Origin: Escherichia coli
Lineage (GTDB): Bacteria; Pseudomonadota; Gammaproteobacteria; Enterobacterales; Enterobacteriaceae
Length of the DNA stretch: 64,000 bases
Assembly (NCBI RefSeq): GCF_002854065.1
Contig: NZ_CP024147.1
Direction: 5' to 3' (one strand)
This document shows, piece by piece, positions 58,219 to 60,909 of the stretch (positions within the stretch are counted from its first letter, which is position 1; each line of letters begins with the position of its first letter). The notes under the pieces are model-generated. The model did not search any database. It had not been told where the DNA came from and saw nothing but the letters and a program-made list of their open reading frames with translations. The position numbers and the translations under genes were made by a program.

Positions 58219-59171
58219 CGCAGACTTCCGCATTTTATTTTGAATCGCTGGTGTGGGACTGGCCGATTGCCATCTACCTGTTTTTGATTGGTATTTCTGC
58301 TGGTTTGGTGACGCTGGCTGTGCTGTTACGTCGCTTCTACCCGCAGGCGGGCGGTGCAGACAGCACGTTGCTGCGCACCACGCTGATTGTCGGACCTGGC
58401 GCGGTGATCCTCGGTCTGTTGATCCTCGTCTTCCACCTGACAAGACCGTGGACCTTCTGGAAGCTGATGTTCCACTACAGTTTTACCTCGGTGATGTCGA
58501 TGGGGGTGATGCTGTTTCAGCTTTACATGGTGGTGCTGGTGCTGTGGCTGGCGAAAATCTTTGAACATGATTTGCTTGCCCTGCAACAACGCTGGTTGCC
58601 GAAGCTGGGGATCATGCAAAAGGTTCTGAGCCTGCTGACGCCCGTTCATCGCGGACTGGAAACATTGATGCTGGTGCTGGCGGTGTTGTTGGGGGCTTAT
58701 ACCGGTTTTCTGCTGTCGGCGCTGAAATCGTATCCGTTCCTTAATAACCCGATCCTGCCGGTGCTGTTCCTCTTCTCCGGCATCTCGTCCGGTGCGGCGG
58801 TGGCACTGATCGCCATGGCGATACGCCAACGCAGTAACCCGCATTCCACGGAAGCGCAGTTTGTACACCGTATGGAAATCCCCGTGGTATGGGGTGAAAT
58901 CTTCCTGCTGGTGGCGTTTTTTGTCGGTCTGGCGCTGGGCGATGACGGTAAAGTGCGTGCGCTGGTGGCGGCATTGGGCGGCGGTTTCTGGACGTGGTGG
59001 TTCTGGCTTGGTGTCGCCGGGCTGGGGCTGATTGTGCCAATGTTGCTCAAACCGTGGGTCAATCGCAGTTCCGGCATTCCTGCCGTGCTGGCGGCGTGTG
59101 GAGCCAGCCTGGTCGGCGTGTTGATGTTGCGCTTTTTCATTCTCTACGCCGGGCAGTTAACGGTGGCGTAA
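58215..59171 (+). CDS. nrfD: membrane quinol dehydrogenase subunit NrfD
   Basis: 318-aa polytopic membrane [34 protein letters not shown]... Confidence 0.95.
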   Translation: MTQTSAFYFESLVWDWPIAIYLFLIGISAGLVTLAVLLRRFYPQAGGADSTLLRTTLIVGPGAVILGLLILVFHLTRPWTFWKLMFHYSFTSVMSMGVMLFQLYMVVLVLWLAKIFEHDLLALQQRWLPKLGIMQKVLSLLTPVHRGLETLMLVLAVLLGAYTGFLLSALKSYPFLNNPILPVLFLFSGISSGAAVALIAMAIRQRSNPHSTEAQFVHRMEIPVVWGEIFLLVAFFVGLALGDDGKVRALVAALGGGFWTWWFWLGVAGLGLIVPMLLKPWVNRSSGIPAVLAACGASLVGVLMLRFFILYAGQLTVA

Positions 59172-59250
59172 GCCAGAACAGAGGTGGTTTCTGGACGTAT
59201 TCCTTCCTGAAGTCGGTTTTCTGGCGCTGTTGTTAAGTCTCGGGGTCAAC

Positions 59251-60909
59251 GTGTTGACCCCGTTGACGGCCTTTGCGGGAGTGCGGTTGCGCTGGCCTGC
59301 CATGATGCGACTCACTTGCATCGGCATTCTGGCACAGTTCGCGCTCCTGCTGCTCGCCTTTGGCGTACTGACGTATTGTTTTCTCATCAGCGATTTCTCG
59401 GTCATTTATGTCGCGCAACATAGCTACAGCCTGCTGTCGTGGGAACTCAAACTGGCGGCGGTATGGGGTGGTCATGAAGGTTCGCTGCTGCTTTGGGTTC
59501 TGCTGCTTTCCGCCTGGAGCACGCTGTTTGCCTGGCATTATCGGCAGCAAACCGATCCGCTATTTCCGCTGACGTTAGCCGTTTTATCTCTCATGCTCGC
59601 CGCACTGCTACTGTTTGTGGTGCTGTGGTCCGATCCCTTCGTGCGGATATTTCCACCAGCAATCGAAGGCCGAGATCTCAATCCGATGCTGCAACATCCC
59701 GGTCTTATCTTTCATCCACCGCTGCTTTACCTTGGCTATGGCGGTTTGATGGTAGCGGCGAGCGTGGCGCTGGCGAGTCTACTGCGCGGCGAGTTTGATG
59801 GTGCCTGCGCCCGAATTTGCTGGCGTTGGGCACTACCTGGCTGGAGCGCATTAACGGCGGGGATCATCCTCGGTTCCTGGTGGGCCTACTGCGAACTCGG
59901 CTGGGGCGGCTGGTGGTTCTGGGATCCGGTGGAAAACGCCTCTTTATTACCCTGGCTTTCTGCCACTGCGCTGCTGCACAGTTTATCCCTGACACGCCAG
60001 CGGGGGATTTTCCGCCACTGGTCGCTGTTGCTGGCGATAGTTACTCTGATGCTGTCGCTGCTGGGCACCTTAATTGTCCGTTCTGGCATTCTGGTTTCGG
60101 TTCATGCGTTCGCTCTGGATAACGTTCGCGCCGTGCCGTTGTTCAGCCTGTTTGCACTGATTAGCCTTGCGTCTCTGGCTCTGTATGGCTGGCGAGCGCG
60201 GGACGGTGGCCCGGCGGTGCGTTTTTCGGGGTTATCGCGGGAAATGTTAATCCTCGCTACGCTGTTGCTGTTTTGCGCAGTGCTACTGATCGTGCTGGTG
60301 GGAACGCTTTATCCGATGATTTACGGCCTGCTGGGCTGGGGACGCCTCTCCGTTGGCGCACCGTATTTTAACCGCGCGACGTTACCGTTTGGTCTGTTGA
60401 TGCTGGTGGTGATTGTGCTGGCGACGTTTGTCTCTGGCAAACGCGCGCAGCTTCCGGCGCTGCTGGCGCATGCGGGCATGCTGTTATTTGCCGCGGGGAT
60501 CGTGGTCTCCAGCGTCAGCCGTCAGGAGATCAGCCTGAATTTACAGCCGGGTCAGCAGGTGACGCTGGCAGGATACACCTTCCGTTTTGAGCGCCTCGAT
60601 CTGCAAGCCAAAGGCAATTACACCAGCGAAAAAGCGATAGTGGCGCTGTTTGACCATCAGCAACGCATTGGTGAATTAACGCCGGAGCGGCGTTTTTACG
60701 AAGCTCGTCGTCAGCAAATGATGGAACCGTCAATTCGCTGGAACGGCATCCATGACTGGTATGCGGTCATGGGGGAGAAAACTGGAGCGGATCGTTACGC
60801 TTTTCGTTTGTATGTACAAAGCGGTGTGCGCTGGATCTGGGGGGGAGGATTGTTGATGATTGCAGGCGCATTATTAAGCGGATGGCGGGGGAGGAAGCGC
60901 GATGAGTAA
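59251..60909 (+). CDS. nrfE: CcmF-like haem lyase NrfE
   Basis: Track ORF 59230..60909 begins at a TTG; no in-frame ATG exists between the upstream stop (59158) and the conserved body; GTG at 59251 gives 552 aa. Confidence 0.88.
   Translation: MLTPLTAFAGVRLRWPAMMRLTCIGILAQFALLLLAFGVLTYCFLISDFSVIYVAQHSYSLLSWELKLAAVWGGHEGSLLLWVLLLSAWSTLFAWHYRQQTDPLFPLTLAVLSLMLAALLLFVVLWSDPFVRIFPPAIEGRDLNPMLQHPGLIFHPPLLYLGYGGLMVAASVALASLLRGEFDGACARICWRWALPGWSALTAGIILGSWWAYCELGWGGWWFWDPVENASLLPWLSATALLHSLSLTRQRGIFRHWSLLLAIVTLMLSLLGTLIVRSGILVSVHAFALDNVRAVPLFSLFALISLASLALYGWRARDGGPAVRFSGLSREMLILATLLLFCAVLLIVLVGTLYPMIYGLLGWGRLSVGAPYFNRATLPFGLLMLVVIVLATFVSGKRAQLPALLAHAGMLLFAAGIVVSSVSRQEISLNLQPGQQVTLAGYTFRFERLDLQAKGNYTSEKAIVALFDHQQRIGELTPERRFYEARRQQMMEPSIRWNGIHDWYAVMGEKTGADRYAFRLYVQSGVRWIWGGGLLMIAGALLSGWRGRKRDE

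What the first reader, a model, noticed from the sequence alone, without database searches (positions are those of the whole stretch)
59158..59251. nrfE has no ATG start; translation must begin at TTG (59230) or GTG (59251)
The frame opens right after the stop at 59158 and contains no in-frame ATG before the conserved NrfE body. The first usable starts are TTG at 59230 (559 aa) and GTG at 59251 (552 aa, the length I recall for NrfE). A non-canonical start 60 to 80 bp downstream of nrfD suggests low or specially regulated translation of this haem lyase.
Basis: seen in the sequence. Interest (0 to 1): 0.2.

Follow-up and report, generated by a model that had tools for sequence, protein, structure and literature searches.

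The report
nrfE starts at a conserved CTG
The E. coli haem-lyase gene nrfE does lack an ATG start.

Summary
The nrfE frame opens after TAA 59158-59160. It has no in-frame ATG until 59302, and the first canonical starts are TTG 59230 (559 aa) and GTG 59251 (552 aa, the start in the curated K-12 MG1655 record).

The conclusion that translation must begin at one of those two codons is not supported. Both would remove residues conserved across the CcmF/NrfE family (E7 and G9 of the P-E-x-G motif) and cut the first membrane helix (residues 2-33 in an AlphaFold model). Neither codon is conserved: TTG becomes TTA or CTG in Citrobacter, and GTG becomes CTG in an Enterobacter. Neither has a good Shine-Dalgarno site.

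The best candidate is CTG 59191. It lies 19 nt after the nrfD stop and 4 nt after GAGGTG (anti-SD duplex -12.8 kcal/mol). The CTG is invariant in Escherichia, Citrobacter, Salmonella and Enterobacter. An Atlantibacter-like relative and one unidentified relative have GTG or TTG at the same position. In Citrobacter, Salmonella and Enterobacter a TGA lies two codons upstream, so no other start is available there. RefSeq/PGAP already annotates this CTG (572 aa).

CUG gives about 1-2% of AUG initiation in reporters, so NrfE is probably made in small amounts. This is a known annotation with no experimental proof found, and of modest interest.

The parts
58215..59171 (+). nrfD coding sequence (ATG start, TAA stop at 59169-59171)
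   Evidence: ORF list; RefSeq annotation of the 100%-identical strain 100416 mapped onto the window; start, stop and length checked.
59158..59160 (+). TAA stop in the nrfE reading frame; the frame opens at 59161 (TGA at the same place in K-12)
   Evidence: Sequence, translation, alignment with K-12.
59181..59187 (+). Shine-Dalgarno sequence GAGGTGG; the GAGGTG core ends 4 nt before the CTG
   Evidence: Duplex with the 16S 3' end is -12.8 kcal/mol. Only 1.8% of 20-nt windows in the 64-kb window reach -11. The GGTG(A/G)+3 nt+start geometry is kept in Citrobacter, Salmonella, Enterobacter and Atlantibacter-like loci although the intergenic length differs.
59191..59193 (+). CTG, the proposed nrfE initiation codon (codon 0)
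   Evidence: RefSeq/PGAP start in E. coli genomes. Invariant in 9 distinct Escherichia, Citrobacter, Salmonella-type and Enterobacter sequences and in 20/20 metagenome matches. No ATG, GTG or TTG variant in 5183 E. coli records. GTG (L084) or TTG (L091) at the same aligned position in other Enterobacterales.
59191..60909 (+). nrfE coding sequence as supported here (572 aa, TAA stop); overlaps nrfF by 8 nt
   Evidence: NCBIfam NF007691 'heme lyase NrfEFG subunit NrfE' scores 1163 bits, and profile positions 1-573 align from the codon after the CTG. AlphaFold model has pLDDT 85.6. Foldseek TM-score is 0.79 to CcmF 6ZMQ.
59206..59217 (+). Codons for P-E-V-G, the N-terminal motif of the CcmF/NrfE family
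   Evidence: E7 is nearly invariant and G9 invariant in the 35-sequence alignment A4. Most of the 61 CcmF N-termini read M-I-P-E-L/I-G.
59230..59232 (+).
   Evidence: TTA or CTG in Citrobacter and Salmonella; anti-SD duplex -5.3 kcal/mol; lies inside predicted helix 2-33.
59251..59253 (+).
   Evidence: NC_000913.3 b4074 starts 80 nt after nrfD. CTG in Enterobacter BIGb0383 and in metagenome L107. Anti-SD duplex -7.1 kcal/mol. It is residue 21 of a continuous helix whose residues 11-30 have pLDDT 94-97.
59287..59304 (+). TTG 59287 and ATG 59302, the starts implied by the 540-aa and 535-aa database versions
   Evidence: The 540-aa and 535-aa proteins are in the protein collection. Anti-SD duplexes are -7.3 and -2.9 kcal/mol.

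Best explanation
nrfE is translated from the CTG codon at 59191-59193, giving a 572-aa protein that begins fMet-Asp-Val-Phe-Leu-Pro-Glu-Val-Gly.

A strong Shine-Dalgarno sequence (GAGGTGG, 59181-59187) sits 10 nt after the nrfD stop codon and places the ribosome on the CTG. Because the site is 19 nt from the nrfD stop, ribosomes finishing nrfD probably also feed it (translational coupling).

CUG pairs poorly with the initiator tRNA, so initiation is weak. NrfE would then be made at a low level relative to NrfABCD. The same may hold for NrfF and NrfG, whose starts overlap the preceding gene.

Shown here: the position of the N-terminus, the SD, and the conservation.
Inferred: that CUG is the codon actually used, that coupling occurs, and that low output is the selected function.
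For: 1. Family-conserved residues lie upstream of every canonical start.
- tblastn alignments to 61 CcmF homologues (33-49% identity) start at residues 1-7 of the CTG-initiated protein. Their own Met aligns with codon +3, which is TTC in E. coli.
- E7 is nearly invariant and G9 invariant in 35 sequences.
- NCBIfam NF007691 aligns from the codon after the CTG, and TIGR03145 profile position 2 aligns at codon +4.

2. The start is bracketed.
- In Citrobacter, Salmonella-type and Enterobacter loci an in-frame TGA lies two codons before the CTG (AGG TGA TAT CTG GAC). Only TAT and CTG precede the conserved Asp.

3. nrfD-linked orthologues have canonical starts at or next to the same position.
- GTG at codon 0 in Atlantibacter-like L084, and TTG at codon 0 in L091.
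- GTG at +1 in Edwardsiella, and ATG at +1 in L093.
- All are preceded by AGGTG- or AAGGAG-type SDs.

4. The SD is strong.
- The anti-SD duplex is -12.8 kcal/mol, against -2.9 to -7.3 for all downstream candidates.

5. The site is conserved.
- The 47-mer 59180-59226 is identical in 5176 of 5418 E. coli records.
- No record has an ATG, GTG or TTG variant.
- The 3 of the 242 variant records I opened keep the CTG.
- 20 of 20 metagenome matches have C at the first base of the codon.

6. Codons +1 to +19 evolve like coding sequence.
- Variable sites by codon position are 6/1/10, and synonymous changes equal or outnumber non-synonymous ones in every comparison within the clade.

7. The AlphaFold model has one continuous helix over residues 2-33, with pLDDT 94-97 over residues 11-30. 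Its fold matches CcmF 6ZMQ.

8. RefSeq/PGAP annotates this CTG.

9. CUG supports initiation at 1-2% (0.02-3%) of AUG in E. coli reporters (bioRxiv 10.1101/063800).

10. All six other nrf genes in the window start with ATG.
Against: - There is no experimental evidence for the N-terminus. I found no N-terminal peptide or start-site profiling data, and no paper in the library discusses the nrfE start.
- The curated K-12 MG1655 record uses GTG 59251.
- CUG is a very poor initiator in E. coli (PMC11497404), so a functional gene depending on it is unusual.
- Conservation of one CTG codon is weak evidence by itself, because CTG is also the preferred Leu codon. Another Leu CTG, at codon +10, is equally invariant.
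- In C. sedlakii and L086 the SD is deleted and an in-frame TTG three codons upstream could serve instead. The CTG is therefore not demonstrably the start in every lineage.
Confidence: 0.8

Rival explanations
1. Translation starts at GTG 59251, as in the curated K-12 MG1655 record, giving a 552-aa NrfE. The 60 nt between CTG 59191 and the GTG are then untranslated leader.
For: GTG is a canonical start. NC_000913.3 annotates b4074 from this codon. It is conserved in most Escherichia, Citrobacter and Salmonella sequences.
Against: - It is CTG in Enterobacter BIGb0383 (L007) and in metagenome L107.
- Its anti-SD duplex is weak (-7.1 kcal/mol).
- It would delete 20 residues, including the nearly invariant E7 and invariant G9, and would halve helix 2-33.
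- The supposed leader evolves like coding sequence and is homologous to CcmF N-termini.
Confidence: 0.06
2. Translation starts at TTG 59230 (559 aa), the first canonical start in the open frame.
For: It is the first ATG, GTG or TTG codon after the frame opens.
Against: - It is TTA in C. werkmanii, Salmonella and several metagenome contigs, and CTG in Citrobacter FP75.
- It has no SD (-5.3 kcal/mol).
- It removes the P-E-V-G motif and 13 residues of helix 1.
Confidence: 0.03
3. Initiation is mixed. Most functional protein comes from CTG 59191, but internal starts (GTG 59251, TTG 59287, ATG 59302) also fire and give N-terminally truncated, probably non-functional products. Alternatively, the gene is fed only by re-initiation of ribosomes terminating at nrfD, with no independent 30S binding.
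For: - A weak primary start leaves downstream starts unshielded.
- Gene callers pick TTG 59287 and ATG 59302.
- The stop-to-start distance is short in all lineages, from 1 to about 30 nt.
Against: Downstream candidates have poor SDs. The tools here cannot separate coupling from independent initiation.
Confidence: 0.08
4. A recoding event supplies the N-terminus. Either ribosomes start at GTG 59184 in the nrfD frame (a 9-codon mini-ORF including its stop, ending at TGA 59208) and shift frame, or NrfD and NrfE are fused by frameshifting.
For: The GTG 59184 mini-ORF exists in Escherichia and Citrobacter-type sequences.
Against: - The GTG has no SD of its own, because it is part of the SD.
- The mini-ORF is not kept in L084, and the GTG is deleted in C. 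sedlakii and L086.
- The nrfE frame is closed by TAA or TGA upstream, so a fusion would need a shift within the 9 nt between the nrfE-frame stop (59158-59160) and the nrfD stop.
- No slippery sequence was seen.
Confidence: 0.01

Closest known systems
RefSeq/PGAP annotation of nrfE (e.g. WP_071999288.1, WP_071524917.1; NCBIfam NF007691)
   Same: It uses exactly the same start: CTG 19 nt after nrfD, giving 572 aa beginning MDVFLPEVG.
   Different: It is an automated homology-based call with no note or cited experiment. The curated MG1655 record (NP_418498.1, 552 aa, GTG) and other database versions (540 and 535 aa) disagree with it.
E. coli genes with non-canonical start codons: infC and pcnB (AUU) (from my own knowledge of the literature)
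   Same: A near-cognate codon preceded by an SD, conserved in relatives, giving reduced initiation that start-codon proofreading should discriminate against.
   Different: The codon here is CUG, not AUU. No autoregulatory loop of the infC/IF3 kind is known or tested for nrfE. There is no experimental proof of the start.
CcmF, the System I cytochrome c haem lyase and paralogue of NrfE (solved structure 6ZMQ)
   Same: Same fold (TM-score 0.79), the same WGGWWFWD haem-handling motif, and the same P-E-x-G N-terminus.
   Different: In 50 of the 57 CcmF-type loci examined the gene starts with ATG two codons before P-E-x-G. In enteric nrfE that position is TTC or CTC, and the start lies three codons further upstream at CTG.
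Translationally coupled operon junctions (termination-reinitiation at closely spaced stop and start codons)
   Same: The stop-to-start distance is 19 nt in E. coli, 8 nt in Citrobacter and Salmonella (where the stop overlaps the SD, TAAGGTGAT), and 1 nt in C. sedlakii.
   Different: The other tight nrf junctions overlap by 4-8 nt and use ATG. Coupling at the nrfD-nrfE junction is inferred, not shown.

Membership tests
NrfE subfamily of CcmF/NrfE haem lyases | Scores above the curated cut-off of the NrfE family profile | tested here: met
   NF007691 scores 1163 bits against a cut-off of 394. The profile is covered end to end (1-573).
NrfE subfamily of CcmF/NrfE haem lyases | WWD haem-handling motif and conserved histidines | tested here: met
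   WGGWWFWDPVENAS is present. H95, H175, H263, H305 and H427 are invariant in the 35-sequence alignment.
NrfE subfamily of CcmF/NrfE haem lyases | CcmF fold (multi-helix membrane core plus periplasmic beta domain) | tested here: met
   AlphaFold model has pLDDT 85.6 and pTM 0.88. Foldseek to 6ZMQ gives E = 1e-21 and TM-score 0.79.
NrfE subfamily of CcmF/NrfE haem lyases | Located in a nrfABCD-EFG operon | tested here: met
   nrfA-G are contiguous at window 55503-61878.
NrfE subfamily of CcmF/NrfE haem lyases | Required for haem attachment to the CXXCK site of NrfA | not testable with these tools
   Reported for E. coli NrfEFG in the literature (review PMC12285233, citing Eaves et al. 1998).
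Genes that initiate at a non-canonical (non-AUG/GUG/UUG) codon | No canonical start is available upstream of conserved N-terminal residues | tested here: met
   The in-frame codons from 59161 to 59209 include no ATG, GTG or TTG. The conserved E7 and G9 lie at 59209-59217. A TGA two codons before the CTG closes the frame in Citrobacter, Salmonella and Enterobacter.
Genes that initiate at a non-canonical (non-AUG/GUG/UUG) codon | Near-cognate codon preceded by a Shine-Dalgarno site at working distance | tested here: met
   GAGGTG ends 4 nt before the CTG. The duplex is -12.8 kcal/mol, within the 1.8% tail of background.
Genes that initiate at a non-canonical (non-AUG/GUG/UUG) codon | The codon and its context are conserved, and orthologues have a canonical start at the same position | tested here: met
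   CTG is invariant in the clade and in 20/20 metagenome hits. GTG or TTG occupies the same position in L084 and L091. No canonical variant was found in 5183 E. coli records.
Genes that initiate at a non-canonical (non-AUG/GUG/UUG) codon | Initiation at that codon is demonstrated experimentally (N-terminal sequence, toeprint, start-site profiling, mutagenesis) | not testable with these tools
   No such data were found in the paper library.
Translationally coupled gene pair | Stop of the upstream gene lies within a few tens of nt of the downstream start, with the SD at or next to the stop | tested here: met
   The gap is 19 nt in E. coli. TAAGGTGAT overlaps the stop in Citrobacter and Salmonella. 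The gap is 1 nt in C. sedlakii.
Translationally coupled gene pair | Downstream translation depends on upstream translation | not testable with these tools
   This needs nonsense mutations in nrfD with a NrfE reporter.

The most novel reading that the evidence does not exclude
The CUG start is not a tolerated defect but a selected translational throttle. It has been held fixed since the Escherichia, Salmonella and Citrobacter lineages split, even though a single C-to-T change would give a roughly ten-fold stronger TTG. On this reading it sets a low NrfEFG:NrfABCD ratio from one transcript. Because IF3 discriminates against non-canonical starts, it would also make haem-lyase output sensitive to initiation fidelity, in the way the AUU start of infC does.
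Probability: 0.25. Interest if true: 0.5.

Novelty: already known. Interest (0 to 1): 0.3.

Why it matters
- Public databases hold at least four N-termini for this one E. coli gene: 572, 552, 540 and 535 aa. The curated K-12 reference carries a version that lacks 20 residues, including family-invariant ones and half of the first membrane helix. Anyone who clones, models or deletes nrfE from the 552-aa annotation would be working with a truncated protein.
- If the CTG start is confirmed, nrfE would be one of the very few chromosomal E. coli genes that naturally use CUG.
- It would also be a clean example of a weak start codon setting the ratio of assembly factors to enzyme subunits within one operon.

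Tried and rejected
- RNA structure at the junction. The fold of 59141-59260 is not more stable than shuffles (-40.5 kcal/mol, z = -1.3, 17 of 200 shuffles as good). I make no structural claim.
- Internal promoter or terminator between nrfD and nrfE. No promoter-like site was found, and terminator-like hits were at chance level.
- Mini-ORF from GTG 59184 in the nrfD frame, with or without frameshifting. It is not conserved in L084, L085 or L086, and the GTG is part of the SD.
- NrfD-NrfE fusion by frameshifting. The nrfE frame is closed upstream by TAA or TGA.
- Sequence search of solved structures. Only 6ZMQ matched, and the alignment starts at residue 46, so it says nothing about the N-terminus. 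I used the structure model and Foldseek instead.
- Literature. Three searches on nrfE with start codon, CTG or CUG found nothing on the nrfE start. The ribosome-profiling paper that mentions nrfE does so only in its reference list.
- The genome-contig scan was swamped by CcmF paralogues because of the WGGWWFWD pattern and returned only four true orthologues. I obtained further orthologues through protein hits and the look-up of encoding contigs.
- One look-up (P0122, Atlantibacter subterraneus) had no DNA on record.
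Full report
**What the window is.** The region is the E. coli nrfABCDEFG operon. A 701-nt query around the finding matches 5420 of 5426 complete E. coli genomes. It is 100% identical to strain 100416 and 97% identical to K-12. Mapping the RefSeq annotation of strain 100416 onto the window gives:

| gene | window coordinates |
|---|---|
| nrfA | 55503-56939 |
| nrfB | 56984-57550 |
| nrfC | 57547-58218 |
| nrfD | 58215-59171 |
| nrfE | 59191-60909 |
| nrfF | 60902-61285 |
| nrfG | 61282-61878 |

.

**Checking the observation.**
- TAA 59158-59160 is in the nrfE frame.
- nrfD stops at 59169-59171.
- There is no in-frame ATG until 59302.
- The first canonical starts are TTG 59230 (559 aa) and GTG 59251 (552 aa).
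- The curated K-12 MG1655 record NC_000913.3 annotates b4074 as 552 aa, starting 80 nt after nrfD.
- Forty-seven codons without ATG is unremarkable on its own (about 0.48 by chance, my calculation).

**Why TTG and GTG are not the start.** Translating the open frame from 59161 gives RWRKPEQRWF-LDVFLPEVGFLALLLSLGVNVLTPL.... The stretch FLPEVGFLALLL lies upstream of both candidates and is homologous to the extreme N-terminus of the CcmF/NrfE family.
- In 61 CcmF-type loci from distant Proteobacteria, the tblastn alignment to the 572-aa query begins at query residues 1-7. Most of their N-termini read M-I-P-E-L/I-G-h-F-A-L-I-L-A-L.
- In a 35-sequence alignment, G9 is invariant and E7 is at least 90% conserved.
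- NCBIfam NF007691 (NrfE) aligns end to end from the codon after 59191. TIGR03145 profile position 2 aligns at codon +4.
- An AlphaFold model (pLDDT 85.6, pTM 0.88) has a single helix over residues 2-33, with pLDDT 94-97 for residues 11-30. The model matches the solved CcmF structure 6ZMQ with a TM-score of 0.79.
- Kyte-Doolittle hydropathy puts a membrane segment at about residues 4-31.
- A start at residue 14 (TTG) or 21 (GTG) would delete the conserved motif and truncate this helix.
- Neither codon is conserved. TTG 59230 is TTA in C. werkmanii and Salmonella and CTG in Citrobacter FP75. GTG 59251 is CTG in Enterobacter BIGb0383 and in metagenome L107.
- Their anti-SD duplex energies are -5.3 and -7.1 kcal/mol.

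**What is there instead.** The in-frame codons between the stop and P-E-V-G are CGG TGG CGT AAG CCA GAA CAG AGG TGG TTT CTG GAC GTA TTC CTT.
- CTG 59191 is the only near-cognate start among them (others are AAG 59170 and AGG 59182) that sits at working distance after a Shine-Dalgarno site.
- GAGGTG(G) at 59181-59187 precedes it by 4 nt. The duplex with the 16S 3' end is -12.8 kcal/mol. Only 1.8% of 20-nt windows in the 64-kb window reach -11.
- RefSeq/PGAP annotates exactly this codon as the nrfE start (572 aa) in strain 100416, K-12 GM4792, 14EC007, SSGw2, JCM 5491 and UR21.
- All 100 rows listed for queries inside 59176-59226 show nrfE as the feature under the match.

**Comparative evidence for the CTG.** lines up the nrfD-nrfE junctions.
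- E. coli and E. albertii have GAGGTGGTTT-CTG.
- C. werkmanii, Citrobacter FP75, Salmonella (L087) and Enterobacter BIGb0383 have TAAGGTGAT(A/T)T-CTG. Here the nrfD stop overlaps the SD, and an in-frame TGA lies two codons before the CTG. Only TAT and CTG can precede the conserved Asp in these lineages.
- Other nrfD-linked orthologues carry canonical starts at the same or the next position:
  - GTG at codon 0 in the Atlantibacter-like L084 (SD AGGGTGA);
  - TTG at codon 0 in L091 (SD AAGGTG);
  - GTG at +1 in Edwardsiella (SD TAAGGAG);
  - ATG at +1 in L093.
- So the N-terminus of enterobacterial NrfE is fixed 4-5 residues before the Pro of the P-E-x-G motif. The Escherichia, Salmonella, Citrobacter and Enterobacter group carries CTG where relatives carry GTG or TTG.
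- Within that group, codons +1 to +19 show 6/1/10 variable sites at codon positions 1/2/3. Synonymous changes equal or outnumber non-synonymous ones in every comparison. The other two frames contain stops.

**Population data.**
- The 47-mer 59180-59226 (SD through codon 11) is identical in 5176 of 5418 E. coli records.
- Queries carrying ATG, GTG or TTG in place of CTG found no identical record among the 5183 that matched.
- The 3 of the 242 variant records I opened differ elsewhere (GGT to AGT, CCT to CCG) and keep the CTG.
- A degenerate-pattern scan of metagenome contigs, with N at the first base of the codon, returned 20 matches, all with C. These included junction variants with a longer spacer and an extended SD.
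- Limit: the 235 E. coli records that did not return a match in the variant-start searches (5418 versus 5183 records) were not individually checked.

**An informative exception.** C. sedlakii (L085) and a Salmonella/Citrobacter-type contig (L086) have lost 7 nt, including the GGTGATA SD.
- The nrfD TAA is now followed after 1 nt by the CTG.
- A TTG inside the end of nrfD falls in frame three codons upstream. PGAP uses that TTG, giving MHNLDVFLPE.
- This shows that the L-D-V/I-F-L-P-E peptide is kept while the initiation signals change. It fits a junction served partly by ribosomes terminating on nrfD.

**Mechanism.**
- Shown: the protein N-terminus must lie at or just before 59194, and a strong, conserved SD is positioned for 59191.
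- Established elsewhere:
  - CUG supports initiation in E. coli at 1-2% of AUG in sfGFP reporters, and at 0.02-3% in other constructs (bioRxiv 10.1101/063800).
  - Initiation complexes on CUG are less stable than those on AUG, GUG or UUG (PMC11497404).
  - NrfE is a CcmF paralogue, and NrfEFG is required for haem attachment to the CXXCK site of NrfA (PMC12285233).
- Inferred:
  - NrfE is made from the CUG at a low rate, probably helped by the strong SD and by coupling to nrfD termination.
  - All six other nrf genes start with ATG.
  - nrfE-F and nrfF-G overlap by 8 and 4 nt, so the weak start would also step down the output of all three maturation genes relative to the four enzyme genes.

**Comparison with what is known.**
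- The CTG start is already in RefSeq protein records and in NCBI's NrfE family model, so this is not a new discovery.
- It conflicts with the curated MG1655 annotation (552 aa). It also conflicts with the 540- and 535-aa versions that gene callers produce from TTG 59287 and ATG 59302.
- I found no paper on the nrfE start.
- The closest analogues are the AUU starts of infC and pcnB (my own knowledge). No autoregulation is known for nrfE.

**Verdict.**
- The best explanation is a conserved CTG start at 59191, with confidence about 0.8.
- Novelty is 'already known' at the annotation level, and experimentally untested.
- Interest is modest (0.3). It matters mainly as a correction to the K-12 reference and as a candidate natural CUG start.

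Noticed in passing
window 60902-60909 (nrfE/nrfF overlap); L086 1501-3723; proteins P0006-P0024, P0075, P0090: Fused NrfE-NrfF reading frames of 737-740 aa are common in Citrobacter and Salmonella records, where NCBI names them NrfEF or NrfF. Versions of 650-665 aa occur, nearly all as single sequences, in E. coli assemblies. The E. coli cases may be indel errors at the 8-nt overlap.
   Followed up: no
L085 1497-1515; L086 1497-1515: A 7-nt deletion removes the nrfE Shine-Dalgarno site in C. sedlakii and one Salmonella/Citrobacter-type contig. It places CTG 1 nt after the nrfD stop and brings an upstream TTG into frame, which PGAP then uses as the start.
   Followed up: partly
L084 (metagenome contig k141_2243), protein P0028: The nrfE on this contig has a divergent N-terminal part and an E. 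coli-like C-terminal part. Its first 237 residues are 94% identical to A. subterraneus. This is either a chimeric metagenome assembly or a recombinant.
   Followed up: no
L003 (E. coli 14EC007) versus L004 (E. albertii NBRC 107761): The strain labelled E. coli 14EC007 is identical to E. albertii across the aligned nrfD-nrfE junction and only 89.7% identical to the window. It may be mislabelled or belong to a cryptic clade.
   Followed up: no
window 58900-59600 (search result): Four of the 5421 matches to the nrfD-nrfE junction lie on records typed as plasmids, and one genome has two copies.
   Followed up: no
window 59180-59240 versus 59241-59330: Between E. coli and E. albertii/14EC007 the SD and the first 16 or so codons of nrfE show almost no change, even at synonymous sites. 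The next 90 nt carry about 20 substitutions, several of them non-synonymous. This may reflect constraint on the initiation region, or relaxed constraint on the first loop.
   Followed up: partly
L094 612-668 (K-12 MG1655): The curated K-12 record annotates a 18-aa small protein, YtcB, just upstream of nrfA. I did not check whether it is intact in the window.
   Followed up: no
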